39,266 nucleotides of DNA from Chrysochromulina tobinii (Eukaryota). The DNA lies in the NCBI GenBank assembly GCA_001275005.1, contig JWZX01002728.1, positions 1 to 39,266 on the forward strand. The letters are read 5' to 3'. Both the position numbers and the translations under genes were made by a program. Position 1 is the stretch's first letter. The number at the start of each line of letters is the position of its first letter. Below the pieces are notes generated by a model. That model did no database searches. It was given only the letters and a program-made list of their open reading frames with translations, and was not told the origin of the DNA. Below, in pieces: positions 1 through 37,439 of the stretch.

Positions 1-2250
1 GCCGCGCAGCAAGCTGTAGTGATCCGGCGCGCACGTGAGGCGCAGGTAAGCGTCGACCCAGTCGGGCGCCGCGGCGAACGCGGCCTCGTGCTCCGCCAGC
101 GCCTTCTGCAGGCGCTGCACCTCGACGAGGATAGGCAGCAGGTCGCCGTCGATCGAGTGCATGATCAGCTGAGACATGAGCCATGTCTTGCCCGCCGCCG
201 GGCCTGCAGTGAGCAGCGTGCATGGGCTCGCACTCGCGTGCAGGCCTTGCAGCAACACACACAGCGAGCGTGCGTCGCGCACCGCGAGCGGCTTGCCGTC
301 CGCATCGTGCCCCTCCACGCCGATGGGCACGCACTGCGTGAGCGTGTTGAGCCGGTAGCCGGAGAGGGCGTCGGGGATGAACTCGTGCTGCGCGCGTAGA
401 CAGTTAAGGTGCCACGCGCGCATGGCCGCGACCCCGGCGGCAGCGGCGGGCATCGGCGGCAGCGCGACCTTCGAGCCGGTGGCAGCCTCGGCAGCGAGCA
501 TGAGCACGGATTGCACCACGCCGACGATGCGCGCGACGTAGTCACGGTAGAGGGTGGGCACCGTGTCCTTGTCGCCCTTGCCGGTGAAGGTGGCGCGCTC
601 GATGCTGGTAACCACCTCGGCGACGCGCGTCTCGAGCTGGCCGGCGGGCGCGACGCCCGGCTCGGTGGGCTGGCCGTTGCGCAGTACGAGCACCTTGGAC
701 GGAAGCGCGTCGAGCGCCTCCCGCACGCGCGGCACCGCGCCCAGCCGCGCGAGCAGCTCGTAGCTCACGGCGTTCTCAAAGACGCACCAGCCGCGCTCGT
801 CATATGGGCGCTCATTGTACAGCGTGTCGACGCCGTCGCACAGCACGGGCCACGGCCCCGCGCGCTTGGCGTCGAGCGCCATCTCGTGAGATGCGAAGCG
901 CACGACGGGCGGGTTGCGCGTAAGCTCGAACGCGACGATGGTCCCGAAGCTGCCGAGCGTCGCGCGGACGGCAGCCTCGCCTGTCGTGGGCTTCAGCCCG
1001 AAGAGGCACAATGCACCATCGAACGCCTTCGGCCGGGGCGGAATCTCGCGCGACTGCAGCACGGTGGTGCCAACGGCGGAGGCGTACACGTCGGCCATAA
1101 CCTTGATCGCGCGACCAAAGGCGGCCCTCTCGTCGGGCGTGCGCTCCCGGTCGGGCAGGTTCTGGAAGAGCGAGGCGTAGTCCCAGAAGACGCCCTCGAT
1201 GTGCGGGTGCTCCTCGAGAGCGGCGAGCACCATGTCCAGGCGCGCGCCGTCCGGGTCGCACTCGCCGGGCGACAGCCAGCCGTGGGTGAGCGCGCCAACG
1301 CCGCGGGTGCCACGCCGGAGCAGCGCGACGGCCTCCTCCGCCGAGAGGAAGGGCGACTTTTCCGCCGGTGCGAGGAGCAGCGCCTCGAGCTCCTGCCGCC
1401 GCTTCAGCCGCCGCCCGTTTGGCTGCCGCAGCAGCCGCCGCAGCCGCCGCAGCCACGAGACACGCAGCAGCTTGATGTCGCCGGCGCGGAGCACGTCAGC
1501 GAGCCGGTCGTCGAGTCCCGAGAGGACGCGAATCATCTCCTCGGAAGGAGCGCCAATGGTCACGGTGGGCCGCGCAGCGTCGCCGTAGTCAACGTCGATG
1601 TCGTCGAGGTTGGTGTCGTCCACGTCGTCCAAAGCATTGGGCTGCGTCGAGCCAACGGACGGTTCCTCCTTACTTGCGGCGCAGCCGCCGCCTCGAACAC
1701 GCATCATCCCCGTAAGTCGCTCCCTTCCCAGCTTCGCCACCGCCGTTGCTGCCTGAGCCGCTTGCGCCGCCACTGCATTGGCGTCGTCGATATCGTCGAG
1801 GTTGGTGTCGTCGTGGGTGTCGTCGAAGTTGGGAAGCTTGTCGAAATCGTTGACTTCGAAAGTGCCCGTCTTCATCCGCTCCCTCGAGATGGTAACCGCC
1901 GCTCCCGTACCAAATGCAGCTGAGCCCAGCCAGCTTCCTTTGCTCTGGGGATGCGGCGGGGGGCTCGGACGGTCGGCAGCCTTGGAGATGAGCTTGGTGC
2001 ACAAGATGATGAAGATAAGCACGGCGGAGAATACCACGAAAAGCCAGAGGCGAGGATTAATGAGGAACCAATTCAGAACTACGAGGATGGAGAGCGCGCC
2101 GTCCTTGTCGCGGTTGAACGCATTGAAGGCCACGAGTTCCTCGATGAATCGAATGGCCGGGTCGATGAAATACCACACGGTGGCACGCGGCTTCGCCCAG
2201 TGGCTTTGCTTCATGCCATCGAGAGAGCAGTTGTGAGAGGTAAGCCCCAT
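1..2250 (-). CDS. NLR-like protein (3' part outside window): N-terminal TM segment, HET/TIR-like domain with RRM-like insert, NACHT/STAND P-loop NTPase
   Basis: Frame open from ATG at 2250 to base 1; absent from the ORF track because it has no stop in the window. Manual translation gives hydrophobic LWLFVVFSAVLIFIIL; HET-like motifs VGALTHGWLSPGECDPDG, GVFWDYASLFQ, MADVYAS, PYDERGWCVFE and ATFTGKGD..V..LY; and Walker A TLLTAGPAAGKTWL (~184-220) followed by LLPILVEVQRL. Confidence 0.8.
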   Translation of the reverse strand, partial: MGLTSHNCSLDGMKQSHWAKPRATVWYFIDPAIRFIEELVAFNAFNRDKDGALSILVVLNWFLINPRLWLFVVFSAVLIFIILCTKLISKAADRPSPPPHPQSKGSWLGSAAFGTGAAVTISRERMKTGTFEVNDFDKLPNFDDTHDDTNLDDIDDANAVAAQAAQAATAVAKLGRERLTGMMRVRGGGCAASKEEPSVGSTQPNALDDVDDTNLDDIDVDYGDAARPTVTIGAPSEEMIRVLSGLDDRLADVLRAGDIKLLRVSWLRRLRRLLRQPNGRRLKRRQELEALLLAPAEKSPFLSAEEAVALLRRGTRGVGALTHGWLSPGECDPDGARLDMVLAALEEHPHIEGVFWDYASLFQNLPDRERTPDERAAFGRAIKVMADVYASAVGTTVLQSREIPPRPKAFDGALCLFGLKPTTGEAAVRATLGSFGTIVAFELTRNPPVVRFASHEMALDAKRAGPWPVLCDGVDTLYNERPYDERGWCVFENAVSYELLARLGAVPRVREALDALPSKVLVLRNGQPTEPGVAPAGQLETRVAEVVTSIERATFTGKGDKDTVPTLYRDYVARIVGVVQSVLMLAAEAATGSKVALPPMPAAAAGVAAMRAWHLNCLRAQHEFIPDALSGYRLNTLTQCVPIGVEGHDADGKPLAVRDARSLCVLLQGLHASASPCTLLTAGPAAGKTWLMSQLIMHSIDGDLLPILVEVQRLQKALAEHEAAFAAAPDWVDAYLRLTCAPDHYSLLRG

Positions 2251-2926
2251 CGCAGCCTCACGCGTCCACTGAGTGCCATGGGCTATGAAATCGGCGGTGA
2301 AAGCGCCGCTGCTTACCGTGGCTGCTGCCGCAGCAAGCGACGAGTTGTCGCGCTGCGGGGATGAAAAACGGGCCTGAGTGGCATTATCGCCAGCCAAGCT
2401 GACCATTGGGGTCGAAACCCTGCCAACGAGCCGATCGAGTCGAGTGGAGACCGTCAAGAGCGCGAGGAGAAAGCTGTACGCCATTCTCCCTATTCACACC
2501 TCTACGTTTTCCCCCTTCACAAAATGAGAAAAGGAGGGCCGGGAGCGACGAGCGTGCCGAGTCAGAGGAAACATCTCGTCTTATGTTAAGCTGACAGCAC
2601 GAATCACGAAATCAACATCTCGCGCCGTCTCGCACCTCTTCTCAAATCAAGTGTCCGTCTCACACGCGCAAGTCTCCGCCGCAGCGTCCCGCGCCGTCCA
2701 CAGCGACCGTCCACAGCTGTATCTAGACGAGCAACCTTCCTGTCAAGAACTCCGTCTGGTCCGCACTCCGGCCTCGCGCCGTGTGGCGTCGATCTCGCTC
2801 TATCTCCTCATCCCCATCGAAAGTCGTCATCTCGTCGCGATCTCATCTCGTCGCGATCCGCTCGCGTTCTTCTCTTCATCCGCCCCAAATATGGCAAGCT
2901 CAGAGTCCGCCCCAAATATGGCAAGC

Positions 2927-5900
2927 TCAGAGTCCGCGCACCTTGCCCTTCATCGCGCGCGCGAGGATCTCGATGCCGTGGTTGTCGCGGATCGCCTCGA
3001 GCAGATGAGCATTCTTGGCGAGTCGGCCGAGGGCGATCGCGGCGTTCTTCTGCGGGCCGTCCTTGCCATTGTGCGCGATGGCAAGGAGTGGCGGCACGAT
3101 CGGGAGCACCGCGAGCACCGCGAGACACTTGTCATTCTTGGCGCACTCGGCGAGGCACAGGGCGGCGTTGCCCTGCATCCCGGTATCCGAGCGCTGCAGC
3201 AGCTTGACCAGGGCTGGCAGCCCGCCGTGGTCGCACAATGCGAGGGCGCCGCGCTCGTGCGCCGCACACGCAGTCAGGATACGCAGCGCCGAGCCCACCT
3301 GGCATGCAGGAGGCCTTCAGAGGTCAATAGAGGTCCATCAGAGGTCATCAGAGGTCATCAGGAGTCCATCAGAGGTCCATCCCAGGCTGCCCGAATCCCT
3401 CCGAGATCGCCATCTCCGAGATCGCCATCTCCGAGATCGCCATCTCCGAGATCGCCATCTCCGAGATCGCCATCTCCGAGATCGCCATCTCCGAGATCGC
3501 CATCTCCGAGTCACTCCGGGCGCGTGGGTCGGTGCGTACCATCTCTTCCGCTGCCGCCGCCGCACTCTCCGCCTGCTCCTCCTCCTCCTCCGCCGCGTCC
3601 GCCGCCCCAGGCGCAATCTCGACGATCCGAGGTGCGTTCGAGATCGCCTCGTGCGACACGCCCTCCTCGACGAGCGCCTTGACGAGTGCGACGAGCACCG
3701 GGGAGCCAAGCAGCCGCTCGACGACCGTTGGAAGGCGCGCCGCGCACCTGTGTGGGGAAGCGACGGCGCCGTGGTGAGCACATGCATGCTCGGACGGGGC
3801 TCAGCCGTTGGAAGGCGCGCCGCGCACTTGGCGAGGATTCCCGCCGCGCGCCGCGCGAGCACCGGCGGCGAGCCGCCCGCGACGGCGCCCGGCGCCGTCG
3901 TGAGCGCCGTCTCGAGCCGCGGGATGAGCGCATCGGCCATCTCCTCGGTGGCGATGAAGCCAATGGCGTCCGCACTCAGCGAGCAGTTGTGCAGGGCCGC
4001 GAGCGCGTTCGGGAGCAAGATTTGCTCCGAGTGCGCCGCGTCGTGCTGGGCACCCCCCTTGGGGAGTGAGCTCACGCATTTGAGGAGCCCGTGGAGGGCG
4101 GGGCCGTCGATGATCAGAGTGCGAAACTTGGAGTGGGCCGACAGGTTGCCCAGCGCCGTCGCCGCCTGGGAGCGCATGCAATGAGAGTGGTCATCAGTGG
4201 ACCTCGAGGGTCATTAGGGAGGGTCATCAGTGGGCCGACAGGCTGCCCAGTGCCGTCGCATGCAAGGAGAGTGGTCATCAGGCTGCCCAGTGCCGTCGCC
4301 GCCTCCTCTGGTGAAGGTGACACACAGCGGCACTCAGCGGCCATCAGAGGCACTCGGCGACTATCAGTGGCACTCAGCGGCCATCGGCGTCATGATAAGC
4401 GTCGTCAGCGTCATCATGAGCGGCCATCAGCGTCATGACGAGCGTCATCAGCGTCATGATGAGCGGCCATCAGCGTCACTCCAGATGCATCTCCGCGCAC
4501 CTGCTCAGCCAGCGAGACCGATTTCGAAGTGACGTGTGTGCCCAGCGCCGCACACAACGGCTTCGCGAACGGGAGCAACTCAAGTTTCGTCCGCGCGCTA
4601 CCGGTACACAGGGCGGCAATGAGCCCGACGGCGGCGACGACGGCCTCGGCCGCGGCCGCCTTGTCAGCTCCCGAGGCCGAGATGGCGGTGGGTGGCGCGC
4701 CGGCGCCGTTTGGTTTGGCAGCAGCCGCGGCGGCAGCGGCAGCGGCGCCGGGGGGCGTCATGATGGCGAGAAGTCTCTCATAGGTGCCTTCACCTGATGA
4801 GGGAGGCAATCAGGGGAGGTGATCAGGGGAGGTGATCAGGGGAGGTGATCAGGGGAGGTGATCAGGGGAGGTGATCAGGGGAGGTGATCAGGGGAGGTGA
4901 TCAGGGGAGGTGATCAGGGGAGGTGATCAAGAGGTTCACCTGCAGCAAGCCGTCGCGTCTCCGTCGCCACGGTCTCGTGTGAACAGTTGAATGCGAGCAG
5001 CTTCAGCTGAGGTGCGAGCGCTAAGAGAGACGCCGGTGGAGGTGCCGCCGCCGCCGCCGCTCCCGCGCCTGCCGCCGCGCCCGCCGCCGCGCCCGCCGCC
5101 GCGGGCACGCTCACCACAGCGCTCACAAGCCTGCGGAGCTCGCGAAGGATTTGGGTGGTGCCTCCACAGACATGTACCTAATTAGGGAGAGGAGGGCGCC
5201 GTGGTGAGCACTTGCATGCCGAGAGGATTTGGGTGGTGCCTCCACAGACATGTACCTCGAGCTGATTGCGCCGCTCGAGGGAGCAGACGACCAGGAGCTG
5301 TGCGAGCTGGCCACCCCAGTGATAGAGCTCCGCGCTCGCCTCGGCGCGCCCGAGACGGCGCAGGTCCTGATGAGGGACGCAATCGATGCTCATCAGTCGC
5401 AGTGGTGATCCGTGGCCATCATCAGTCGTCATCAGTCGCCATCATCAGTCGCCGTCATCAGTCGACGTCATCAGTCGTCATCGGGGAAGCACTCACCTCC
5501 CGTCATCAGCCGTCATCAGTCGTCATCAGGGGAGATCTCACCTCCCGACCCGTCGCGCTCGCCTTCGCCTTCGCCCCCACCGTCCCCTTCCCCGCCACAT
5601 TCTCCTTCCCCTCCTCCACGGCCGCCGCCGCAGCCTCGTTGAGCTTGAGCGCGCGTTGGCACGTGCGCGCGAGCAGATCGAGAATGCGCTTGATCCCGCC
5701 CGCGTGACGGATGCACACACGGGCCGCAGAGGACTCGCGTGCGAGCGTACCTGATGAGGGACGCAATCAAGGGTGCCATCAGAGCCAATCCGAGCGCAAT
5801 CATGGCGCAATCATGGCGCAATCATGGCGCAATCATGGCGCAATCATGGCGCAATCGGAGCGCAATCAGAGCGCCATCAGAGGCCATCAGGCGTACTCAG

Positions 5901-7917
5901 GGAAGCGAGCGCCTTGGCGGCCGCGGCTTCGCTCTTCGTGCGAGCGACCGCCACGTTGGCAGCGCGCACTCGAGGATCTGTAACCGTCGCTGGGCCCCCT
6001 GCCTCGCCGCCGAGCAGCCGCGCTGTCGTGGGCGCCTCGCTGCCGGCCGCGGGGCCCGCGGGCTCAGCGGTGGCGGCGGCGGCGGCGGCGGCGGCGCCAG
6101 TTGCGGATTCCGCAACCGCGAGCTCCTGGTCAGCATAGTTGATGAGCACTTCGAGGGAGGACGCACCTGATGAGGGAGGCAATCAAAGCATATGAGAGGC
6201 CATGAGAGGCCATTAGGTTGATGAGCACGTCGAGGGAGGCAATCAAGGCGATGAGAGGCCATCAGGTTGATGAGGGAGGACGTTATCGAGCCTTCACATT
6301 CGGGTATTCACATTCACAGGGTGGACGTACTCGAGTCCGCGTTCGTATGGATCTGATCGAGCAGCTCGCGCACGCGACTGCGCAGCGCTTGGTGCTCGTC
6401 CGCTGCGAGCTTCGCATCCTCGCCCTTGCTCGCGCTACCCTTGCCCTCGATGGCGGCCTCCGCCTTGGCCGCTGCCAAATCCAGCTTCAGGATCGACTGC
6501 TGCCGCTTGATCTCCGCCTTCTCCGCCTCGGGCGCCATCGCGAGCGCGGTCGCCAAGTCCTCGGCCGCCTCAACGTACCTGCCGCGCTCTCCAGTTGGGC
6601 CATTAAATCGCTCTCCAGTTGGGCCATTCAAATCGCTCTCCATGGCACTCAACTCGATCGCACTCAACTGGATGGCACTCGATGGCACTGGATGGCACTG
6701 GATGGCACTGGATGGCACTGGATGGCACTGGATGGCAGTCGATGGCAGTCGATGGCAGTCGATGGCACTCGATGGCACTCGATGGCACTCGATGGCAGTC
6801 GATGGCACTCGATGGCAGTCCATCGCACTCCATGGCACTCCGTGGCACTGCATCGCACTCCATCGCAGTTGATGGGCGGCGCGACGCACCTGCCGAGCTC
6901 CGCCTGCGCGGCAGCGCGGCGCACGTATGCCTTGAGGACGGGCGGCGGCGGCGGGCGCTGCTTGATGTCGTTATCGAGGAACGTTGCGATCTCGATCACG
7001 CGAGAGCTGATGAGGGAGGCAATCCGCTCAGCACTCAGTACGGCACATCATCTTCGCAATCAATGCCCATACACGCAATCAATGCCCATCATCGCAATCA
7101 ACGCCCTTCTAACGCGCACCAGTCGTCGAGCGCCGAGAGCAAGGTTGCGTACCACGCACTCACTCGCAATCTCACTCGCAATCTCACTCGCAATCTCACT
7201 CGCAATCTCAACGCACCAGTCGTCGAGCGCCGAAAGGAAGTTGCGCAGCTTCAGGTGCGCCGCGGCGCGGTTGGCGAGCGACGTCTTGTCGCCCTTGAAG
7301 TGCTCAACAGCGCGCGAGTAGCCGGAGAGGGCCTCCGAGTACTGCCCCGCCTTGAACGCCAGGTTCGCCGCCTCGCGCTCCTTGGCACACGCGGCGATCG
7401 CACCTTTGCGCTGCTCGGTGCGCTGCTCGATGTCCTTGGCCATCGCGTCAAAGGCGCCCTGATCCTGCACGGCGGCCGGGTTGTCGGGATCGCCGAAGAG
7501 CTCCTCGTCCGGATCTTCCTCGAACAGGTCCCATCCCTTGTAGTAGTCCGAGAACGCGCGCGACCGGTTCGACTCACGGAACTCGAGCCACTTCTCACGG
7601 CGCGCCTTGCGCAGGTAGTAGCTCTCCTTGAGCTCCTGGAGCTTCTCGCGGTTGGCCTCCTTGGCCTCGTCGAGGCGCTTACGCTCGTCCACCTTCTTCT
7701 GGATCTTGGCCTGCTCCTCTGCCCGCTTCGCCGCCCGCTTCGCCTCCTTGGCCGCCGTCTCCTTGCGGATCTTCTCCTCCTTCTCGGCCGCCACCTTGTC
7801 GAGCTGGTCGATGTCGATGCTGCCGTCGGTCAGACCCTTGATCGTCTTGTTGATGTCCTCCACCTTGGACAGGAAATCGCTGAAGTCCTCTTCGTCGTAG
7901 TCGTTGCTACCGGGCAT
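2927..7917 (-). CDS. TTC12: Tetratricopeptide repeat protein 12-like (TPR + ARM repeats, axonemal dynein assembly factor), 11 exons
   Basis: Exons 7917-7217, 7006-6890, 6578-6331, 6166-5897, 5750-5542, 5366-5256, 5177-4940, 4793-4501, 4165-3828, 3747-3540 and 3298-2927 join in frame across GT-AG introns. N-terminal DFSDFLSKVEDINKTIKGL, TPR (EREAANLAFKAGQYSEALSGYSRA..LANRAAAHLKL) and C-terminal GNAALCLAECA..QKNAAIALGRLA..IRDNHGIEIL match my recollection of TTC12. Confidence 0.85.
3399..3510. repeat. 15-bp tandem repeat (CTCCGAGATCGCCAT) x7.5 inside TTC12 intron 10
   Basis: Read directly from the sequence. Confidence 0.95.
3748..3827 (-). mobile_element. Introner-like 80-nt intron: 23-nt copy of downstream exon + shared 42-nt 3' module
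   Basis: Intron starts GTGCGCGGCGCGCCTTCCAACGG, identical to the next exon start, and ends GCATGCATGTGCTCACCACGGCGCC-17nt(AG). Removal restores GILAKCAARLPTVVERLL. Confidence 0.75.
4811..4927. repeat. 13-bp tandem repeat (CAGGGGAGGTGAT) x9 inside TTC12 intron 7
   Basis: Perfect copies read directly. Confidence 0.95.
5178..5255 (-). mobile_element. Introner-like 78-nt intron: 32-nt copy of downstream exon + shared 42-nt 3' module
   Basis: Intron starts GTACATGTCTGTGGAGGCACCACCCAAATCCT, identical to the next exon start, and ends GCATGCAAGTGCTCACCACGGCGCC-ctcctctccctaattAG. Confidence 0.78.
5794..5856. repeat. 11-bp tandem repeat (GCGCAATCATG) x5.7 inside TTC12 intron 4
   Basis: Read directly. 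Confidence 0.9.
6671..6820. repeat. 10-bp tandem repeat GATGGCA(C/G)T(C/G) x15 inside TTC12 intron 2
   Basis: Read directly. Confidence 0.95.
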
Positions 7918-13099: not shown

Positions 13100-15277
13100 T
13101 CACTTCGCATTGTCACCGAATGCGAGGCCCTCTAGCCAGACACGGGCTGGAGACGGGTCGTCACCCATCGGAGGCTGCACTGACTGCCAGGGCTCACCGA
13201 CGACCTCTTTTGGCATGATGAGTGCATTGGCGGCGGGGTCGAGCGACGACTCAGAGAGTATCTGGAAACTGGCCATGGACACGCCACACGACTGTGGGCA
13301 TGCCGTACTGACTAAGCCACCGCTGGAGAACGAATATGAGCAGTAGCCGCTCGCCGCAAGGGCGCCGCAGTTAGAGAACCTGTTGGTTGGGCAGCTATGG
13401 CAGGTGTACCGGCAGTTATGGCTCACCCAGCTATTAGAGCCACAGTAGCCGACAGAGTTCCAGAACCAGCAGTGGCCGTTGGGCTGGTCGTTGGAGAGCG
13501 AGCTGCACAGCGAAGGTGGAGGTGGCGGCGGCGGAGAATGGCGGGGCGGCGGAGGCGGGGGAGACGGCGGAGGCGGGGGCTTGGGCGGCGGTGGAGAGAT
13601 TTCATCAGGGCTAGGGTACGCCCAGATCTGCTCCTGGATGCCACCATCGCAGCCGCAGCAGTACTGATTGCTTATGTATTGTTTGCAAGTCTCATTGTGG
13701 GTCCCATGCGTGCGGTAGAAGTCGCAGTCGGCCCAACTGCGACCGTCGTTCCACTCGGTGCCGTCATCGTTGGCCTTGTCGACGCATTGCCCGACCCCCG
13801 TAAGAACGCTTGCAGTGCATGAGTACTGAGCGCGCGCACAGGGGAAACAAGACGCTTGAGCACGCGAGCACAAGGATGCATGCGCGCGTCAGGGGGATTG
13901 AGCTCTCGCCTGCTCAGCTAGCTGGTCAGCATCGAGCTGCGTCATCCCTACACGATTGCCGAGGTGGTACTTGTGATATTCGGCCGGATTGCTCGTGTAC
14001 AGGCTGAATGCGGCGTCCTTGGGGTTGATTGTGTCACTCCCATCAATGGAGAATGCAGAGGCGCTGTAGTGCATGAGGGATAGCATGTCGTAGGGACGGG
14101 CAACGTCGTCCTCCGCCTGCACATGAAAGTTGTTTTCCTTTCCCGCAATGATCTTCGCGAAATTGACCGTCACGTAAGTGTCTCGGTCTGGGCGTGACTG
14201 TTCGTGCGTCTGCCCAAGTGCGTGGAGGAGCTCATGCATGGAAGTGCCGAGAGAGTCGCAGCCGGGCGATTGAAGATTCAGTGCCTGGGATGTCCAGTGA
14301 GTCAGCTCGCCCACGTAGGACCAGCAGCCTGTATCAAGAGACTGGATATAAATGGCAGGGCTGACGAGGCACTCCCCCGCGGATTTGTAGCCAACATCTA
14401 TGAGCATTCCATGAGGCAGCAGCGTAAGCTCAGACTGAGTCCACAGGCAAATGAAGGAGGCCATCCTTCTCATGGGAGGCAATCCCTTTAGGCGTCCTTC
14501 ACACTTCAGCAAATTATCGGAGGCCATCCTTCTCGAGAGGGCGCATGGACAAGGTGCTACGCGCGAGAGTGCAAGTGGCTGCGTGTGCATACCTTGCCAC
14601 TCGATGCATGGCAACACCTTCTCGAACATCTCGACAGAGCGAGCGATAACCTGGCGCACAGCAAGCTTGGCTTCGGCCGCAAAGCAATAGTTGACCTTCT
14701 TGTTTGTCCACGGCTTTCCGGCACCGGCGGTGTAGAGGCTCGTCGCACCGAGCACCCGAGGCCCTCCGCTGAATTCTGGTTCGGTGAGCTCCATGTCACC
14801 CTCGGTCGACGTCTTCTCGGTTTCGGACTCATGACCTGCGGCGCCGCCTTCCTCGAGGTCCTTTCCAGTAGTGCCACCCTCTCCAGCTGCCTCATCGGCG
14901 TCCGAGGCGGTGAACTCCAGCCCAGCTGCTGCGGCCGCAGCGGGCCCGAGAAGGGTACCGACCTCGGTCGCGAGGAGCAGCTTGTGCTCACCTGGCATTC
15001 TTCCGTTCGCCACGTGTGCATCGATTGCCTCTTGCGCCACTTTGAGGGTGAGGGACTTGTGTGCAAAGTGATTCTTCAGAGTGTACGCCATGCTGAGCAT
15101 GCGCTCATCATGCGTCCGTTTCGGGTAGTCCTCGTGCGTCCTGAGTTCCAGATTATCTTTGCCTGAGTCCTTGCTGCGGAGCTCCTCCAGCGCGGGCTCC
15201 AACGCAGGCTCCAACGGCGGTGGGGCGGCGCTGGAGAGTGCAAAAAGGAGCGCAAGCAGCAACATCACCTTGCGCAT
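13100..15277 (-). CDS. Secreted astacin (M12A) zinc metalloprotease with Cys-rich module, Pro linker and ShK-like domains, 3 exons
   Basis: Signal peptide MRKVMLLLALLFALSSA; HELLHALGQTHEQSRPDRD zinc motif; SLMHY Met-turn; GCWSYVG. Exons 15277-14593, 14397-13910 and 13825-13100; the second intron is GC-AG. C-terminal C..W...GYC...W...NCRYTCHSC is ShK-like. Confidence 0.88.
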
Positions 15278-15762
15278 GTTCAGAACGTACTTTCTGCGAG
15301 CGCGGTGGTCGCGTTTAGGGATCGCAGGAAGCGGTTCGCGTGCGGTTCGACATTGACTAGGCAACTTCCAAGTTTGGTTCGCTCTCCTTGATAACAAAAA
15401 TGGATCGGGAACGGAAATCACCATCTGCATGCATGCCCATGCATGCCCGCCTCCTCACATCCTATCCGTGAATCGTGTGAGGCGCTTTTGTATTTAGAAC
15501 CATAAAAGTATCACCAAATTCCCCCGCACTAAATCCTCGAACCAAGCCCCGAATCGTTAACAGCCCTTCCAACTGCTCTCCAACTGCGAGTCCTTCCACT
15601 CTACAGCTGTACACGTCGTCGACTGGCAGAGCACGTCGAGAGTGTGCATTACAGCTGCTTATCATGCTGTGTATTCATTGTTAAATGTAACAGTCCACGA
15701 TCAGTGTACGTCTACGGACTACGCGTATACGGAATACGGCTGTTTAATATGTTCAGCAATAG

Positions 15763-18392
15763 TTAGTCCACGGCCCTACTCACGACCCCGAGCCCAAAGA
15801 GCGATCGCGCCGCGCACGCGCGCAGCAGGTCGTCACGTGCCGCCAGCTCGGAGAGAGCGAACCTGATGAGGGAGGCAATCGGCAGGCAATCAGAACCGAT
15901 GCAGGTCGTCACGTGGGCGGCAATCAGCAGGCAATCAGCAGGCGATGCAGAACCTGTGTCCGACTGGGAGGGCGGCAAAGGCGTTCAGAGGATCGAACAA
16001 GCCCGCCGGCGCATGCATGTACGTGAGCGTGCCCGGCCCACCCGGCATTGGCACCGACTGTGCGATTCTTCGAAGGTCCGTCGGCGGCCACTCGGGTTCG
16101 GGTTCGATGAGCTCGAGAGGGACGAGCTTGATGAGGGTGGTGGCGGCGCTGAGGGAGACGGCACGAGGGTCGCCTGATGCAATCAGGGTCACTCCAGCGA
16201 CCAGCAGTGAGATTGCAGTGAGATTGCAGTGAGATTGCAGTGAGATTGTAGTGAGATTGCTAATGCAATCAGGGGCACTCCAGTGACCAGCAGTGAGAGT
16301 CGGTGATGGCACGAGGTCATCAGTGGTCATCAGTGGTCATCAGCGCGGTCATCAGTGGTCATCAGTGGTCATCAGCGCGGTCATCAGTGGTCATCAGTGG
16401 TCATCAGCAGTGAGAGTCGGTGATGGCACGAGGGGCGCGCTCAGAGTGGTCATCAGTGGCCATCAGTGGCCATCCGTTGTCATCAGTGCTCCTCCGTTGT
16501 CATCCGTTGCCATCAGACGTCAATCAGCAGGCAATCACGTACCTCCGCCGCTCCTCGCGACCAGCTGCGCAAAAGCCGCCTCGCTCTGGGAGAAGGCGTG
16601 CCTCTGCTTGTGCCGCTGCTGCCGCATACGGCGATGCAGCTCCGCCTTCGCCACCCCCTGCTGTGAAGACACTTGAGCGCGAATGCGCGCCCAAAGCATT
16701 TCAAATCGCTGACGCCAGACGCCCAAAGCGGCGCCGTGGTGAGCGCCAAATTTGGTCATGGAGCCGTCGTGGTGAGCACCCATTGTCGTGGTCGATGGTA
16801 TTGTCGTGGCGGCATGGGCGTTGGTATTGGCGTCGGCGGCGGTCGATATTCCGATCGCCGCCAACGACGGCGCGGGCGACACGGACGGCGCGGGCGACAC
16901 GGGCGGCGCGGGTGGCATCACAGCCAGCGCTGGCGGCGCGGGCGGCGCGGGCAGCACAGACGGCATCGGCATCGGGCCGAAGGGCAGCGCCTGACGAAAC
17001 TGGCGCTCGCCAAAGCATGCGGCCCGCACCTGATGAGGGGTGCAATCAGAGGTCATCAGCGAGGCCATCAGAGAGGCCATCAGAGCGCTTGCCAATGCAT
17101 GCGGCCCCGCTCCGCTCAACACAACGTGGCATGATCCGCACCGCATTGAGTGCTGTGGTACTCAGCGATAGGTCGGCTGTCGGAATGGCAATGGTCAGAT
17201 GCAGCGAAGCGCCCGACACAGCGCCCGGCACGGCGCTCGAAACGTTGCCGCTCGCTCCGCCACCGATCGCATCGCCACTGATTGCCTCTGATTGCCCTGT
17301 GCTGATTGCTACTGATTGCCCTGTGCTGATTGCCTCTGATTGCCCTGTGCTGATTGCCTCTGATTGCCCTGTGCTGATTGCTACTGATTGCCCTGTGCTG
17401 ATTGCCTCTGATTGCCCTGTGCTGATTGCCTCTGATTGCCCTGTGCTGATTGCCTCTGATTGCCCTGTGCTGATTGCCGTTGAGTGCCCAGTGTGAGCGA
17501 CGTGGACGACCCCGCGTGGAATGTAGAGCACATCCCCCGGCCGCAGCAGCACGTCCAGCTCTGGAGGCCCGAGGCTCTCCAGCGTCAGCCGCGAGGTCCC
17601 GTCCGGTAGCCGACGGCCATCCTTGCCCGCTTGCTCGTCGGCAAAGGGGCGGCGCTGCGAGAGCGGATGGACGGTCGGCCACACTAGCCAGTGCTTCGTA
17701 CCGTGCAGCTGGACGATGAAGACGTCGTGGTCGTCGCTGTGGGGCGGCACCGTCTGGCTGCCGGGCGGCGTCAGGTAAACGTTCCCGTACGCGTAGCGGA
17801 AGTCCCGAGCCAAGCGCGCGCAGAGCTCGTGCACCCTCGGCCACAGCTTGTCGACGCGGTTGATGATGAGAGAGGCACCGCTGGCATAGGCAAGGTGGGG
17901 CGTGGCATACTCGGTCACGTGCTTCAGGTCTTGGAAGATGAGCAGCTCGGCCGAAGTTCCCGGCAGCGACGCGCGCACGAGCAACTCGTCCATCTCGTCC
18001 AGCGTGAGCGGCGCGTCATCCAGAGGGCGGGCCCTGGCCGTGCGCTGGAGCAGCACCGACTGCCGGTCAAAGTGCTCCGACAGGAAGCGCTCGGGCGTCA
18101 GTGCAGCGCCGAGCAGCTCAGCGAGCGCCTCGAACCTCGATGCGAGCGGCCGTCCCGCGACGTCGGGGACCGCGCCATTGCTTTCTCTCGATTCCATGCT
18201 GCAGGTGGCGGCGAGCGTCACGCCCGTCGGGGCGCTGAGCTGCACGCGCGCCGAGCAGCGCGATGCGGCCTGTACTTCCCAAGCCGCGGGCGAGAACACG
18301 AGCGTCGGGAGAACAAAGTTGACGAGGCGTGAACGAGACGCAACCGGACTTCCAGGAAGCACGGCAGACATTGAAGACCACCCGCACCACAT
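15763..18392 (-). CDS. JmjC/cupin-4 oxygenase, NO66/RIOX/RoxA-like, 4 exons
   Basis: NVYLTPPGSQTVPPHSDDHDVFIVQLHGTKHW, LRPGDVLYIPRGVVHVA, SLHLTI, FRQALP. Exons ~18392-17142, 17029-16543, 16173-15954 and 15862-15763. Start codon uncertain (18461, 18392 or 18371). Confidence 0.8.
17278..17477. repeat. 24-bp tandem repeat (CTGATTGCCTCTGATTGCCCTGTG) x8, in frame within JmjC exon 1 (AISTGQSE repeats)
   Basis: Read directly; translation visible in ORF 17046..18461. Confidence 0.92.
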
Positions 18393-18484
18393 TGAGTTGT
18401 TACAAGAATTTAGAGTTACGTCAATCAAATGACGTGTGGCGCTCGCGAGTTTTGCCGTCATCGCATTTCTCGCCGACGCGAGGC

Positions 18485-18844
18485 ATGGAATACATGACCG
18501 TCAACATCGACTACAAGCATTCGAATTTCAACAATCAGTGCAAGGGCGCCCCGAATCCCTACACTCGGTGGAACAATGAGATGTTTGGCGCGGCACGGCT
18601 CAATCCTTCGCAAACAGCCGTGCGGCGAGCGGTCATAGGGGAACCGCCGCCGCTTGCGGCCGCATCGATGAAGGTTCCCGGCGGCATCGCACTCAGGGGC
18701 TCGTGGCCGACCGCGAGCGCATCGTTCGTACCGTCCGTGGGCTGGACGAACGATGAAAACGCCGCGCCAGCGTTCACTCCGCACAAGAAGCAGAACTTCC
18801 AGTGGCAACACAAGCACTTCGTTCGCCCCCAATCGCAATGGTGA
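18485..18844 (+). CDS. Hypothetical protein, 119 aa
   Basis: ATG-to-TGA ORF with C/G-ending codons and non-shadow composition (N, K, F, W, Y rich); no family recognised. Confidence 0.55.
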   Translation: MEYMTVNIDYKHSNFNNQCKGAPNPYTRWNNEMFGAARLNPSQTAVRRAVIGEPPPLAAASMKVPGGIALRGSWPTASASFVPSVGWTNDENAAPAFTPHKKQNFQWQHKHFVRPQSQW

Positions 18845-19342
18845 GACACGTGCCTGTCCTCGGCGGACCAAGCTTTGGAGTCGTAGAAGTGCAACTGTAA
18901 AGCGTGCGGCTCAAAGGTGAACGTGGAGTAGTGCGTGCCACGTATCGTAGAATAGAGTAGAGAGTCGAGTAGAGTGAGTGAGAGAGAGCGGAGCCGGGGC
19001 GTCGGGAGTCGCGAGGACGCGACGCGCCCGCCGAGCCGCCGTTTGGCGTGTGGCGCGCAATAGTCAACGCAAAATACTGTACCGCGACGCCCAATGACCG
19101 TCTTAGGCGACGAGAATCGAATGCCTACCGCCGTACGTCACGGCTCACGCGTATATTCGACAGACCTATCTCCAATTTTTGTGGTACGCGATACAGTAAG
19201 ACTGCGCTGAGCCCGCGGGACCGCTGTGAGCTGTACATGTAACCTGTATCTCAGCTCAAACACGCTACGCGGCTACAATAGTTCGGCGAACTTTGCGGTT
19301 TCAGAGTTTGCTTTCACGGCGCACACTTTCGTGCCGAGAGAC

Positions 19343-20749
19343 ATGCAAACGTCCGCAACGCCCATGGCGGCCCTCTTCACCGATGACGAGGCTGCGGCGG
19401 CAATCCAGTCGCGGATACGAGGCAGGCACGCGCGCGCCCAGACGAGCCACAGGGCGGCGCAGCGGGCATCCGCGCGCATCGACGACGAGCCATCGATCCC
19501 CTTCACGGCAGATCTCGCCAAGCAGCTTGCCGAGGCTGGCGGCGTCGGCGCGAGCGCGAATGGGATGCACGTCGTGTGCCCTCGGCTGGTCGCAACGGGC
19601 CATAAGCTGGCAGGCTCGCTTAGGACGGCGCTCCGTGGGTTGCCGCACCTCACGGCGGTCGACCTCTCCGACAACCGCCTCACCTCGCTCGCCGGCCTTG
19701 AGGCACTGCCGTTGCTAAACTCGCTCGTGTGCCGCAACAACCGTCTGATGGGCGTGCTCGACTACCGCGCACCGGCGCTCGGCTCGCGCCTGAGCTCCGC
19801 CGACCTACGCGACAATGCCATCGCGGGCGCCGTCAGCCTGCCGCCCGACGCCGACGGCCACGCCGTCGGCATCGAGGTACATACACAACTCGAGACGCTG
19901 CTCCTCGACGGTAACCGGCTGCGCTCCCTGCGCGGTGTGGGCGCCGCGCGCCGGCTTCGCACGTTCTCGGCCGCGCGCAACAGCATCCAGGACACGAGCG
20001 GCCTCGGCCCTCTCACACATCTCCGAGCGCTCGACCTGAGTGCTAACCAGCTCCACGCGTGCAACGAGCTCACGGAGCTGTGTACGCTCCGGACGCTCGC
20101 GCTGCATGGGAACCGGCTCGCGGCCCTACCGGACCTGACGGGCCTGATCGAGCTGCACTCGCTCACGCTCGCCTCCAATCAGCTCCTCTCACTCCCGGCC
20201 CTCGCAGAGGCCCTCACGGCCAACACGCTCAAGGCCTCGATGGATACCGATGGCGACGGGTTCATCGACGCGACCGAGCTCTTGGCATGGAAGGCAAAGG
20301 CGCCGGCGGCGCGCGCGCTGCGCTCGCTCACGGTCGCTAACAACCCCTTCCTCGACCGCCTTCTCGACGCGCGCCTCAGGATCATTCATGCCATCCCGAC
20401 CCTTGCGATCCTTGACGAAATTGACGTAACGCCCGAGGAGACGGTTGCCTGCAAGGGCCTCCACGGCGACGACGCGGCGCAGCTGCTTGCGATCCGACAA
20501 AGACTCTTTCCTGACGTGAACCATATGAACAGTCATAACTTCGAGAACCACCCGAAGCTCATGTTCAGCTACGCCCGCCAGCACTCTGAGCTTTGGCCCA
20601 GGTCGCATGACCTCATCCCGCCGCTCCAGGGCTTCAGCCACGCCGCCGAGCTCTCCGCCGAAAGGATACGCAAGGACACGTACGGGGAGGAGCTGCAACG
20701 GTCGCCTAAGCCTCCGCGCCGCACGGCGGAGCGCTTCGCGGAGCGCTGA
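19343..20749 (+). CDS. IQ-motif + SDS22-type LRR + EF-hand protein (LRGUK/LRRC23-like LRR region)
   Basis: AAAAIQSRIRGRHAR (IQ); repeated LxxLxLxxNxL; DTDGDGFIDATEL (EF-hand loop); LRR cap NNPF..ARLRIIHAIPTLAILDEIDVTPEE. Confidence 0.8.
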   Translation: MQTSATPMAALFTDDEAAAAIQSRIRGRHARAQTSHRAAQRASARIDDEPSIPFTADLAKQLAEAGGVGASANGMHVVCPRLVATGHKLAGSLRTALRGLPHLTAVDLSDNRLTSLAGLEALPLLNSLVCRNNRLMGVLDYRAPALGSRLSSADLRDNAIAGAVSLPPDADGHAVGIEVHTQLETLLLDGNRLRSLRGVGAARRLRTFSAARNSIQDTSGLGPLTHLRALDLSANQLHACNELTELCTLRTLALHGNRLAALPDLTGLIELHSLTLASNQLLSLPALAEALTANTLKASMDTDGDGFIDATELLAWKAKAPAARALRSLTVANNPFLDRLLDARLRIIHAIPTLAILDEIDVTPEETVACKGLHGDDAAQLLAIRQRLFPDVNHMNSHNFENHPKLMFSYARQHSELWPRSHDLIPPLQGFSHAAELSAERIRKDTYGEELQRSPKPPRRTAERFAER

Positions 20750-26126: not shown

Positions 26127-28604
26127 CTAATTAGTTTGCAGCGCGCGGCGCGCCAACCACGGCGGCGGACCCCGCCAGCTCTCAGCACTGAACTGTAGCC
26201 GAAGCGCGGCCTGGCGCTCCTCTTCGCCCATCGCCTCCCAGGCGGGCGTCTGCGCCCAGCCGTGCTCGTCGTCATTGTTCCAGCCGCTCTCGCCCGTGAA
26301 GCCGAGCTGCCGCGCATAGCCGCGCTCCACGTCGCTTAGGAAGCGCCACTCGCGGTTGAAGACCTTGCGGCGCAGATTCTCCTTGCGCTCGCGCTGCAGC
26401 CGCGCCGAGGGCAACGACGGCACCTTGGGCGGCGTCGTGAGCGCCTTCGTCGCGCCGGGACGACGCCATGCTGCCGGGTCCGTGGGCGCCGTCGTGAGCG
26501 CATTGGTCGTCGGCGGATGCGCTCGCGGCAGGGCGACCGAGGGCGGTGGGGCGGCGGCGGCCGATGCGGGCGGCGGGACGGGCGGCGCGGCGGAGGGCGC
26601 GGCGGAGGGCGCTGTGGTGGGCGCGGTTCTTGGCGCTGTGGCGGGCGCGGCGGAGGGCGCGGCTGCTAAGGAAACGCCCTTCGGCGGTCTGGGGTGTATC
26701 TCGGAGGTATCTCGCGCCGGGTTGCCCGGTTTGGGAGGGTTGCCCAATTTGGGAGGTTGCTTCAAATGGACGATCCTGGAGCTCATCGCGCCTCCGTTGC
26801 TGCTGCCATCAGGACTGCCAGCCTCGCCGGCAGCCGCGTTGCACCCCTCGCACGCCGCGCCGTGAGCAGCCCCCCCAGCAGCAGCAGCAGCGGACCCGCT
26901 CTCGCCCGCGTCGCTCGTGCCGACCCCAAGGCCTCGTAACCACTGGGCACACGGCTCCGCCCAAAACGGTTTGAGACCAAACCCATGGTCTCCGAAGTCA
27001 CGGCGTAGGTAGTGCACTCGCGTGCCTGCCGCGCGCGCCGCGGCCACGTAGGGGTCTGTGTCGGACTCGGGCGGGCATACCTGCATGCAATGAGGGAGGC
27101 CATCAGCATGCAATGAGGGAGGCCATCAGCATGCAATGAGGGAGGCCATCAGCATGCAATGAGGGAGGCACTCAGTGGGGTGGCACTCAGCGTGCAATGA
27201 GGGAGGCACTCAGCGGGGTGGCACTCAGCATGCAATGAGGGAGGCACTCAGTGGGGTGGCACTCAGCATGCAATGAGGGAGGGCACTCCGCATGCAATGA
27301 GGGTCTGTACCTCATCTGCTGTCGAGGCGACGACGAAGAGAGGCGGCGGCGCGACGAACGCGTCTCCAGCGACGAGTCTCTCCTTGCCCACCACGAGTGA
27401 CCGCACCTGCATGCAATGAGGGAGGCCATCAGCATGCAATGACGGAGGGCCATCAGCATGCAATGAGGGAGGCCATCAGCATGCAATGAGGGAGGCCATA
27501 AGCATGCGATGAGGGAGGCCATCAGCATGCAATGAGGGAGGGCCATCAGCATGCAATGAGGGAGGCCATCAGCATGCAATGAGGGAGGCACTCAGTGGGG
27601 TGGCACTCAGCATGCAATGAGGGAGGCCATCAGCATGCAATGAGGGAGGCACTCAGCATGCGATGAGGGAGGCCATCAGCATGCGATGAGGGAGGCCATC
27701 AGCATGCGATGAGGAGGCAATCAGCATGCAATGAGGGAGGCAATCAGCATGCAATGAGGGACCGCACCTGCTCTGAGTGTACGTCCGCACGCCAAAAGCC
27801 GCATGTGTCCTCGGTGAGCCAGCCGTCGGGGCAAGTGCATGGATAGATCAGCCCCAAGCCATCGGGTGTGCCCTCGCTGTCGGGTGCGGCGATGGACACG
27901 GCGCTTGCGTCGCCGCCATGGCCGCCGCTGCTGCCTCTCTGTAGACTCACACCGCTGGCTGCTGCGGCGGCGCCCGAGGCGCACACGTAGCCTCCCGCCG
28001 AGAAGCCGAACGCCACCACCGGCCCGCCGTTCGCGTGCCTGCGCGCCGCGCGCACGGCGCCGACGAAATCCGCATGCATCTGCGCCAGATCGTGCGAGGG
28101 CAGCAGCCGGTAGCGGAGGACAAAGGCGGGAACGCCGAGGGCCTCGGCGACCCAGCGCGCAATCGGCGCGCCCTCGCGCGGGTGCAGGAACTCCAGGTTG
28201 CCGCCGGGGCACACGATCGCCGCGCCCTTGCCCGCGGGCGTGCCGGCGGGTGGCAGGTACGGCAGCAGCGCGGGCGCGCCGTCGACAAAGAGGGGATCCT
28301 CTGCAAGCGGCGGGAAAGGACGCGCCTTGCCGCGCTCGTCGCTAAGCACGATCCAATCGGGCATCTCGGGCCACTTCTTGCGCTTCGCGAGAAAGCGCGG
28401 CTGCTCTGGCGTGGCCATCGGCATGCCGTCAAGATCGATCATGGGCGACTCGATGGCATTCTTGCCTGGAAGGCTCTTCTTGCGCGGTTTGGGCACCGCG
28501 CCCTTGGATGAGGCCCGCGGCGCACGAACCGGCGCAAACGCCGGCGGCGCCACGTGCAAGAGGTCGATAAGCCCGGCTAGCGCATCGAGCGAGTCTTCTC
28601 TCAT
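26127..28604 (-). CDS. Alpha/beta hydrolase (Aes/BD-FAE-like esterase) with Ala/Pro linker and C-terminal Trp-repeat module, 3 exons
   Basis: Exons 28604-27768, 27406-27311 and 27080-26127. AAIVCPGG, AFVLRYRL, GFSAGG (Ser), LIYP, STADEVC (Asp), GDHGFG (His). Confidence 0.82.
27081..27767 (-). repeat. Two introns filled with ~23-bp repeats (GCCTCCCTCATTGCATGCTGATG and variants)
   Basis: Arrays at 27081-27310 and 27407-27767, both ending CATTGCATGCAG at the acceptor. Confidence 0.92.
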
Positions 28605-28779
28605 AAACGGCCTCTTCGCAAGAGTTTCGTCAAGACAAGTCAGTTCAAGTTCGAGTCAACTCACGGCTGGTCTAGTCAGTCATGTCCATCCACGGCTCCT
28701 ATCTTGCAGCCGCTGTGAACGGAGAAGGCCGCCAACGCGAGCGACTATCGGCGCTCTGTCGCAGAGGCGCCTGACGCAA

Positions 28780-30332
28780 ATGAGCTCTGCCGCGGCGCCG
28801 AGCACGGCGGCGAAGGACAGTGGGCCGCCTGACGAGTACATCTCGATCGCGCAAATCCGATACACCGCCGCGCACGGCAAGCCGGCGGAGGCCGCGAAGG
28901 CCAAGGAGCAGCTGCTGGCGCTGATCAAGAAGCGCGAGATGGGCCCGCTGTACTCGGCTGTGTGCGAGCAGCTGGGCACGCTGCCGGACGCCGCACTCGC
29001 CGCCTCATTCGCCGCCGCGAACGCAGCCGAGCTCGCGCGCCTCGACGAGGCCATCGTGCGCTGCGACAAGGACGAGGGCGAGTCCGAGGTCCGCGAGGCC
29101 TACCTGGCCAAGTCAGAGTACCTGGTGCGCATCGGCGAGAACGAGAAGGCGCACGCGGCCATCGAGGCGACGTACACCAAGACGGTCGCCATCGGGCTGC
29201 GGCTCGACCTGCTGCTCTGCAAGCTGCGCGTCGCGTTCTTCTTTGACAACCTGAAGCTCGTCAAGGCGACTGTCGACCGGGCCAAGGCGTTGCTCGAGAC
29301 GGGCGGCGACTGGGAGCGGCGCAACCGGCTCAAGGTGTACGAGGCCGTCTTCCTCTTGTCCATCCGCGACCTCAAGAAGAGCTCCGCGCTCCTGCTCGAC
29401 TCGATCGCCACGTTCACGGCGACGGAGCTGCTGCCGTACAACACCTTCGTCTTGTACGCGGTCGCGACGTCGCTGGTGGCGCTGCCGCGATCGGAGCTGA
29501 GGCCCAAGATCATTGACTCGCCCGAGGTGCTGCAGGTCATCGGCGAGATCCCGCACATCGCCGGCCTCGTCAACGGCCTCTACGGCTGCTCGTACCGCAT
29601 GCTCTTCGCGTCGCTCGTCGAGGTCATCGATATGCTCCTGGCGGACCGGTAGCGCTGCACTCCTCGCTCTCCCCCGCTCTCCCCCGCTCTCCCCGCTCCC
29701 GCGCTTTCGGGAGCCCCGCGCCGACAACCAAATCCGCGCTTGCGAGCAGACTCACTTGTAGCGTGGCCGATACCGGCGCCAGAGCACACGCGCGCCCTCG
29801 GAGGCGGCATCGGCTCGGGCTGGCTTCGCCAACTGCGCGAGGCCTCCGCCGCCTCTGACGCTACAAAAGTCGCCCGTAGCGTGCCCTTGCTCCTCTGCGT
29901 CGTGCCACTGACTGCGTCGCTCCTCCGACAGGTACTTTGCGGCGCACGCGCGCTACTACTGGCGCGAGGTACGCGTGCTCGCCCAGAAGTGTCCCTACTG
30001 CCTCCCTACTTGCCTCCCTAATTGCCTCCCGAATTGCCTCTCCCTATTGCATGCAGGTACGCGTGCTTGCGTACACGCAGTTCCTCGAGAGCTACCGCGC
30101 AGTCTCGCTGCAGTCCATGGCCGCCTCTTTCGGCGTCTCTTCTGCCTTTCTTGACGCTGAGCTCGCCGCGTTCATCTCGGGCGGACGCCTCTCGTGCTCC
30201 ATCGATAAGGTCGCCGGCATCGTCTCGTCCACGCGGCCAGACACGAAGAACGCGCAGTACCAGGCCACCATCAAGCAGGGCGATCTCCTCCTCAATCGTG
30301 TGCAGCGACTCAGTCGCGTCGTCAACATGTGA
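28780..30332 (+). CDS. RPN7: 26S proteasome regulatory subunit RPN7/PSMD6, 3 exons
   Basis: [72 protein letters not shown]. Exons 28780-29648, 29932-29968 and 30057-30332. Confidence 0.95.
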
Positions 30333-35455: not shown

Positions 35456-35724
35456 CCACAGAGCACAGACCCCCCCACTTGCGAACTCCGGCGACCGTAC
35501 GAAAGCGTACTCCATTTAGTGGGCTAGCCGGTGGCGAGAGTGTGTGCGTGCGCCGCGAGAATTTCGCAATTGTGGCGGTTTCATGTGCTCACTACGGCGT
35601 ACAAACTTGCCATCTCGACGACGTCGGACGAATTGGGTCGGCGTCGCCCGCCCCGGGAGAGGACAGTGAGAGTGGGACGATTCTCTACGTACCAGTCTAC
35701 CCGCTTCAGCACGGCATCGGAGCG

Positions 35725-37071: not shown

Positions 37072-37439
37072 CCACTTGGGCCACTCGCTCGACCTGCAGC
37101 AGCTTTGGGTGCTCCCAAATTTGGGAGGTCCCACACCCGCATACTTAGCACACTATGCATGCGCATGTATCTCCAGCTTGTGGGCTGTCGGCCGTCATGT
37201 GGTTGCCGTGATGTTAGTTCTCCATGTGCTCCCATCATCATGCGTGCCGTGTTAATGTGCCGTGTGTGGCCTCGCCCCGCTCCCGCGTGCTGGTCCCAGG
37301 GCGCCCCGCGGGTCGGTCAAACCGATCCCTACCCTAATCCGGTTGTACTCTCTATGTACGTTCCGCTGCCGCGGCGACCGTCACGCGCGCGGGGGGATTT
37401 GAAAACGGCTTCACCGACCAACGGAGCGTCACCTCAAAA

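What the first reader, a model, noticed from the sequence alone, without database searches (positions are those of the whole stretch)
1669..1707. Ubiquitin-like RVRGG motif fused to a cryptic myristoylation signal inside the NLR-like protein
Seen: minus-strand codons 1707-1669 read M-M-R-V-R-G-G-G-C-A-A-S-K, lying between the N-terminal TM segment and the HET-like/NACHT part and flanked by two DDTNLDDID acidic repeats. Established: ubiquitin ends in LRLRGG, which deubiquitinases cleave after GG, and G-C-x-x-S-K is the classic N-myristoylation plus palmitoylation consensus, which needs an N-terminal Gly. Inference: a DUB or a pathogen protease could cut after RVRGG, release the NLR from its TM anchor and expose GCAASK for post-translational acylation, acting as a proteolytic relocalisation or activation switch.
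Basis: partly seen in the sequence, partly recalled or inferred. Interest (0 to 1): 0.8.

Follow-up and report, generated by a model that had tools for sequence, protein, structure and literature searches.

The report
Ubiquitin-tail cap hides lipid-anchor signal
An immune-sensor-like protein of a freshwater alga carries a short copy of ubiquitin's tail directly in front of a hidden fatty-acid attachment signal, a pairing kept in many distant relatives, so a protease likely cuts there to let the sensor be lipid-anchored, although the cut itself is untested.

Summary
The motif is real and in frame, in an open gene for an NLR-like protein (TM leader, unnamed domain with an RRM insert, NACHT, about ten WD40 repeats) of a Chrysochromulina-like haptophyte. 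The pairing is not chance. In 146 distant family representatives, 23 G-C-x-x-S/T sites lie upstream of the domain: 12 follow the initiator Met, 10 follow R-x-R-G-[G/A/S], and 1 follows neither. The control gave 0 of 24. In close paralogs DNA homology stops at the GG boundary, where a second, unrelated myristoylation start (M-G-A-G-A-S) replaces the first. The motif therefore most likely acts as a removable cap on an acylation signal. The TM anchor and acidic repeats are lineage-specific (most leaders are 7-25 residues). No ubiquitin fold precedes the site. USP21 does not cut the bare RLRGG peptide, whereas ZUFSP/ZUP1-type enzymes do and fit the fixed R-x-R. Cleavage, acylation, the enzyme and any switch role are untested, and many paralogs lack the motif. 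This scan noted a similar pairing before in NACHT proteins of other genomes (unchecked AI notes).

The parts
2446..2484 (-). First ATG (2484) and short hydrophobic N-terminus, signal-peptide-like (inferred)
   Evidence: three N-x-S/T sequons follow at residues 37, 50 and 88
1990..2097 (-). Hydrophobic, probable transmembrane segment (residues ~133-168), lineage-specific leader
   Evidence: KD peak 2.79; no such segment in 11 distant carriers
1786..1812 (-). First acidic repeat (residues 228-236)
   Evidence: found in close paralogs only
1687..1704 (-). Ubiquitin-tail-like site, P6-P1 = M-R-V-R-G-G (residues 264-269); predicted cut after 1687
1669..1686 (-). Cryptic acylation signal G-C-A-A-S-K (residues 270-275): Gly1 for myristate, Cys2 for palmitate (predicted)
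   Evidence: same register as the initiator-Met N-termini of 12 relatives
1594..1620 (-). Second acidic repeat (residues 292-300)
514..1536 (-).
   Evidence: model pLDDT 95; RRM Z 10.4, rmsd 2.6, 73 aligned; no HET hit
1..204 (-). Start of the NACHT-type NTPase (Walker A at 204-184); the gene continues beyond the window into NACHT and about ten WD40 repeat exons
   Evidence: L002 is identical to window 1-2600 and extends it

Best explanation
The R-x-R-G-G hexapeptide is likely a protease site copied from ubiquitin's tail, and a host enzyme that reads this bare peptide is predicted to cut after the second glycine and expose G-C-A-A-S-K for myristoylation and palmitoylation. Shown: the family keeps an acylation-type N-terminus either straight after the initiator Met or straight after this motif, behind leaders that are otherwise unrelated. 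Inferred: cleavage; N-myristoyltransferase action on the new Gly (after Met removal in the M-G-A-G-A-S class); membrane attachment of the NACHT-WD40 sensor. The most likely enzyme class is ZUFSP/ZUP1-like, or another protease able to cut RLRGG without a folded ubiquitin. In this paralog the cut would also swap a TM anchor for a lipid anchor. Whether the cut is routine maturation or a regulated switch is open; I lean to maturation or slow gating.
For: anchored on the acylation motif alone: 23 upstream sites in 146 representatives = 12 initiator Met, 10 after R-x-R-G-[GAS], 1 other. Control 0 of 24, Fisher p 6e-8 (sequences not fully independent). After dropping 6 of 146 proteins that fall below the list cut-off on domain score alone: 11, 8 and 1. 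Reverse test: 13 of 16 upstream R-x-R-G-[GAS] sites give Gly1 + Ser/Thr5 if cut after P1, 1 of 16 if cut after the P3 Arg, 3 of 16 if cut between P2 and P1. Carrier domains are only 28-65% identical (median 46%); capped and Met-start forms are interspersed on the tree, 7 changes, at least 3 forced. DNA identity between G-class and M-class paralogs is 83-97% over the 30 nt before the GG boundary and 22-28% over the 18 nt after it; two other breakpoints bracket the motif. In 13 carriers P4 varies (V5 L3 A2 C G F) and P6 is hydrophobic in 12 of 13; the two Arg are fixed by the search pattern. This fits the R-x-R reading of ZUFSP enzymes (PMC5824887; PMC8776766). RNA-library contigs of three studies bridge the site unspliced.
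Against: No cleavage or acylation data. P1 is Ala or Ser, not Gly, in 3 of 13 carriers, which is odd for a Gly-Gly-specific enzyme. The motif is dispensable in many paralogs: 6 of the 14 closest hits and 3 of 15 loci lack it. The closest long paralog, P0002, has lost Cys2. No ubiquitin fold precedes the site (acidic, Ala-rich 76-mer), and typical DUBs need one. A haptophyte ZUFSP was not shown: the passage seen lists Cryptophyta, Alveolata, Amoebozoa and Rhizaria and no own genome is held. The distant proteins are automatic gene calls whose starts I could not check on DNA.
Confidence: 0.6

Rival explanations
1. The motif is a decayed relic of an old ubiquitin-like fusion and is no longer cut; proteins are acylated only when translation starts at a Met just before the Gly.
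For: One carrier (P0087) has a 75-residue leader, the length of ubiquitin, ending in the motif. Ubiquitin fusions are common in algae (PMC6332867 abstract). The M class could start at its own ATG. Many paralogs lack the motif.
Against: The G class has no Met before the Gly, yet Ser5 and Lys/Arg6 are kept in register behind unrelated leaders at 28-65% domain identity. Breakpoints spare exactly the motif. The P0087 leader gave no ubiquitin hit in Pfam, the PDB or the Atlas.
Confidence: 0.14
2. The site is a tripwire for a pathogen protease (a viral di-glycine-specific or ubiquitin-directed enzyme): infection cuts it, and the freed sensor is acylated and activated.
For: NLR-like architecture with hypervariable WD40 repeats. 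Viral DUBs process polyproteins at di-glycine sites (PMC9741609 passage), and a Helitron VTD enzyme cuts the RLRGG peptide (same call).
Against: Relatives with a plain Met-Gly start would be acylated all the time (12 cases), so acylation alone is not an activation signal. P4 can be Ala, Gly or Cys, unlike LxGG-type viral sites (consensus recalled). The site is conserved, not diversifying: no changes in codons 256-275 against L004.
Confidence: 0.11
3. An Arg-specific protease (metacaspase-like; specificity recalled) cuts after the P3 Arg and leaves G-G-G-C as the new N-terminus.
For: Two fixed Arg; tolerance of Ala or Ser at P1 in 3 of 13 carriers; this cut also exposes a Gly.
Against: Ser/Thr5 falls in register for only 1 of 16 sites with this cut, against 13 of 16 for a cut after P1. 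The M class places Met exactly at P1'.
Confidence: 0.1
4. The leader is not translated: splicing or an unseen start puts Met next to the Gly, and the motif is only intron or UTR sequence.
For: The P3 codon is CGA in 8 of 8 loci compared, giving an AG before GC. Leader dN/dS is weak (0.59 for residues 4-130, 0.92 in the TM part; small counts).
Against: RNA-library contigs run unspliced across the site (X12 1560-1738, X13 1560-1769 with 0 differences, X14 1560-1828; DNA carry-over not excluded). Synonymous changes occur at P5, P4 and P2. Residues 171-255 have dN/dS 0.36, like the core's 0.39. The peptide pattern, not a DNA pattern, recurs in distant relatives.
Confidence: 0.05

Closest known systems
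AvrPphB / ORF4 / NopT (YopT-family effectors) with embedded acylation sites (PMC2708883, passages)
   Same: Proteolysis exposes an internal Gly(P1')...Ser(P5') motif with a nearby Cys for myristoylation plus palmitoylation and membrane targeting.
   Different: Those are bacterial proteases that cut themselves at a GDK-type site. Here the protein is an endogenous NACHT-WD40 sensor with no protease domain found in the part read, and the site mimics ubiquitin's tail.
Ubiquitin fusion precursors (Ub-eL40, Ub-eS31; algal fusions such as Ub-NiSOD, PMC6332867 abstract and passages)
   Same: An N-terminal part ending in R-x-R-G-G would be removed to define the partner's N-terminus.
   Different: No ubiquitin fold: the leader is 7-269 residues of unrelated sequence and only about six tail residues are kept. 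That paper's main text has no hit for RGG or myristoylation.
ZUFSP/ZUP1/Mug105 deubiquitinases (PMC5824887, PMC8776766)
   Same: Catalytic core reads R-x-R-G-G through two salt bridges and cuts the bare RLRGG peptide quickly; typical DUBs such as USP21 do not.
   Different: In the passages read, the substrates are ubiquitin chains and a model peptide, with no natural linear substrate named. Presence in haptophytes was not shown.
Fungal NWD/HET-E-type NLRs (bioRxiv 10.1101/2022.03.16.484565, passages)
   Same: N-terminal domain + NACHT + hypervariable, near-identical WD40 repeats.
   Different: The N-terminal domain gives no HET hit and holds an RRM insert; each WD40 repeat is its own exon; that preprint's main text has 0 hits for 'myristoyl'.

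Membership tests
Ubiquitin/UBL fusion precursor | C-terminal tail R-x-R-G-G before the partner | tested here: met
Ubiquitin/UBL fusion precursor | A folded ubiquitin-like domain (~76 aa) before the GG | tested here: not met
   No Pfam hit; the preceding 76 residues are acidic and Ala-rich; most relatives' leaders are 7-25 aa. P0087 leader inconclusive.
Ubiquitin/UBL fusion precursor | Cleavage after GG by a DUB | not testable with these tools
   needs a biochemical assay
Post-translationally myristoylated proteins | Gly1, small residue 2, Ser/Thr5 directly after a cleavage site | tested here: met
   28 of 29 non-redundant close contexts (consensus recalled from PROSITE, and GX2XXS in PMC2708883); 13 of 16 sites in the representative set
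Post-translationally myristoylated proteins | Demonstrated cleavage-dependent acylation | not testable with these tools
   needs labelling or N-terminomics
NLR-like STAND (NACHT + repeats) | NACHT NTPase | tested here: met
   Walker A present; own Pfam score below the cut-off, paralogs P0002, P0012 and P0087 above it
NLR-like STAND (NACHT + repeats) | C-terminal superstructure-forming repeats | tested here: met
   about ten 194-nt WD40 exon+intron units in L002; paralogs carry LRR, ankyrin or WD40
HET-domain (PF06985) NLR | HET/TIR-like effector domain | tested here: inconclusive
   0 of 74 members hit PF06985 at E 0.05; fold searches were filled by the RRM insert, so the flanking part was barely tested
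ZUFSP substrate | Arg at P5 and P3 with G-G | tested here: inconclusive
   pattern present, but P1 is Ala/Ser in 3 of 13 carriers; fit to the pattern is not proof of cleavage
ZUFSP substrate | A ZUFSP enzyme encoded by the host | not testable with these tools
   no genome held; no haptophyte name in the one supplement file searched

The most novel reading that the evidence does not exclude
Protists use a ubiquitin-free 'ubiquitin-tail cap': a six-residue R-x-R-G-G leader that a ZUFSP-type protease removes to license lipid anchoring of NLR-like sensors. It would be the first natural linear substrate class for the puzzling peptide activity of ZUFSP enzymes and a link from ubiquitin-protease activity to immune-sensor placement.
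Probability: 0.3. Interest if true: 0.9.

Novelty: new variant of a known kind. Interest (0 to 1): 0.74.

Why it matters
Cut-to-expose acylation is known from caspase substrates (recalled) and self-cleaving bacterial effectors (PMC2708883), and ubiquitin-fusion processing is known with a folded ubiquitin. A bare ubiquitin-tail peptide used as an exchangeable cap on an acylation signal joins the two. My searches found no description of it (open-access library only). It gives a direct test of what the ZUFSP peptide activity is for, predicts a hidden set of acylated proteins that Met-anchored predictors would miss in algae, and opens a handle on protist NLR-like immunity.

Tried and rejected
Own-genome search: no genome held. 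Generality outside this family stays open: a motif-region search with one distant carrier found 12 candidates and none at E <= 10; Atlas searches gave no usable hit; the viral-contig pattern scan gave 1 match, which lies on the strand opposite a long phage-type ORF and is taken as chance. A motif-only profile search was not run. Ubiquitin-like fold of the P0087 leader: no hit, not folded. Single-sequence model of the motif region: pLDDT 36, uninformative. HET identity: no hit; fold lists were filled by RRMs. The 16 hits all carry the motif, but the query was the motif region, so they show allelic range, not frequency. Summed contig depth peaks over the motif were not used, because depth mixes paralogs. 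Splice-based origin of the Gly start was considered and rejected (see rivals). The acidic repeats are not part of the mechanism (0 of 11 distant carriers). Supplements were not read except one search of PMC5824887, whose taxon figure may be a picture that the text search cannot see.

Full report
Observation. Window 1707-1669 on the minus strand reads MMRVRGGGCAASK, residues 263-275 of a stop-free frame of 831 codons that leaves the window at its start. Locus L002 is identical to window 1-2600 and extends the gene. The first exon encodes 1286 residues from the first Met, with a hydrophobic leader, two acidic repeats around the motif, a ~340-residue domain, a NACHT-type NTPase and the start of WD40. 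About ten 194-nt units follow, each a 129-nt WD40 exon plus a short intron, 82% alike and variable at two spots. Named hits are Chrysochromulina tobinii and C. parva gene models, so the host is a Chrysochromulina-like haptophyte. The architecture is NLR-like. The 'HET-like' label is unproven: no Pfam HET hit in 74 members, and the confident model (pLDDT 95) matched only through an inserted RRM (Z 10.4).

Close paralogs. Of the 14 closest hits, 8 carry R-[VI]-R-G-G upstream of the domain and 6 do not; none of the 12 weaker hits does, and for 9 of those my anchor for the domain start was not found. Of 15 loci, 12 carry it (3 are the window's own gene) and 3 lack it. In 29 non-redundant contexts, 28 meet a myristoylation consensus directly after the GG (16 source proteins came from a motif-region query). 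Two unrelated tails occur: G-C-A-A-S-K (23 begin with Gly) and M-G-A-G-A-S (6). DNA identity between the classes is 83-97% over the 30 nt before the GG boundary and 22-28% after it. The window-type tail departs from other G-class tails right after the Lys6 codon. In L013 homology begins only about 30 nt before the GG end. Three breakpoints thus bracket the motif, and one falls exactly on the predicted cut. Leaders differ widely (TM-bearing, a small beta-rich-looking domain, low-complexity), as do the C-terminal sensors (LRR, ankyrin, WD40, PUB plus OTU-like).

Distant relatives. A search of 1.84 billion cluster representatives with residues 255-660 gave 1663 hits at E <= 0.001; 146 of the best 150 were new. 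Anchoring only on G-C-x-x-[ST] upstream of the domain gave 23 sites: 12 after the initiator Met, 10 after R-x-R-G-[GAS], 1 other. In the six frames of the window, 0 of 24 other such sites have that prefix (Fisher p 6e-8; relatives are not independent, so this overstates certainty). The query held the motif, which could favour carriers; keeping only the 140 proteins that pass the cut-off on domain score alone leaves 11, 8 and 1. In reverse, 13 of 16 upstream R-x-R-G-[GAS] sites give Gly1 with Ser/Thr5 if cut after P1, against 1 and 3 for the two other registers (these 16 include two close M-class paralogs). Carrier domains share 28-65% identity, and capped and Met-start forms are mixed on a tree of 33 rows (7 changes, at least 3 forced; one capped member is sister to a Met-start member with 95/83 support). 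So the cap and the initiator Met are interchangeable ways to present the same N-terminus. None of 11 distant carriers has the acidic repeat or a TM-like leader, and 9 have leaders of 7-25 residues. One has a 75-residue leader, a possible decayed ubiquitin-like domain, but it gave no hit. These proteins are unnamed automatic gene calls, so their taxa and true starts are unknown.

Is the site translated? dN/dS against paralog L004 is 0.36 for residues 171-255, 0.39 for the core, 0.59 for residues 4-130 and 0.92 for the TM part, on small counts; codons 256-275 are unchanged.

Mechanism. Shown: the sequence coupling and its register. Inferred: a cut after GG, then myristoylation of Gly1 and palmitoylation of Cys2, as shown for AvrPphB-family proteins after self-cleavage (PMC2708883, passages). 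In the M class Met removal would be needed first (recalled). [quoted passage not shown] The free P4 with a hydrophobic P6 fits that reading. Against it: P1 is Ala or Ser in 3 of 13 carriers, and no haptophyte ZUFSP was shown. A VTD-family enzyme also cuts this peptide (PMC9741609, passages), and one paralog carries an OTU-like Cys box of its own, so other enzymes remain possible. Because 12 relatives present the same N-terminus with no cap, acylation is probably a standing requirement for membrane location, and the cap a way to keep it when extra N-terminal modules are added, or to delay it. A true activation switch is possible but unsupported.

Comparison and novelty. It works like embedded acylation sites and like ubiquitin-fusion processing, but it is not a ubiquitin fusion (no fold). 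Seven literature searches on the motif and the mechanism found no description of this pairing (listings only, open-access library); a search for haptophyte NLRs listed only fungal papers among the 15 shown of 38. Earlier notes of this scan report an LRGG plus lipidation-like pairing in NACHT proteins of other genomes; I could not check them, and no look-alike sequence was returned. Generality beyond this family is therefore untested here. Verdict: real, conserved and probably functional; a new variant of known processing logic; interest 0.74.

Noticed in passing
L002:9172-11073 (continuation of the window gene): About ten tandem 194-nt units, each one WD40 exon (129 nt) plus a repeated ~65-nt intron, 82% alike with two hypervariable spots; resembles HET-E-type repeat arrays but with one intron per repeat.
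   Followed up: partly
window 802-1041 (-): An RRM-fold subdomain is inserted in the unnamed N-terminal domain (Z 10.4; Pfam RRM_1 in 14 of 74 members); a possible RNA-binding element in an NLR-like family.
   Followed up: partly
L009:12514-12675 / P0013 C-terminus: A paralog ends in PUB domains and an OTU-like cysteine box (Pfam OTU E 0.003, below cut-off); the locus ends before the domain does. A candidate in-family protease or integrated domain.
   Followed up: partly
P0087 residues 1-75: Leader of ubiquitin length ending in the motif; may be a decayed ubiquitin-like domain and hint at the origin of the cap; no database hit.
   Followed up: partly
L013:5640-5680 / P0008: Paralog whose leader seems reduced to seven residues from Met, with unrelated DNA upstream.
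   Followed up: partly
family-wide: The same domain pairs with LRR, ankyrin, WD40, MORN, EF-hand, Mind-bomb SH3 or PUB modules; 1663 representative hits, with no Pfam family for the domain itself.
   Followed up: partly
window 2927-6000 (-): Upstream neighbour is an armadillo-repeat gene whose introns are filled with short tandem repeats.
   Followed up: no
window 13889-15454, 17046-18500, 19211-20749, 28114-29652, 35227-36885, 37338-38939: Ordinary eukaryotic genes by Pfam: astacin, JmjC, LRR, proteasome RPN7, EF-hand, ankyrin.
   Followed up: no
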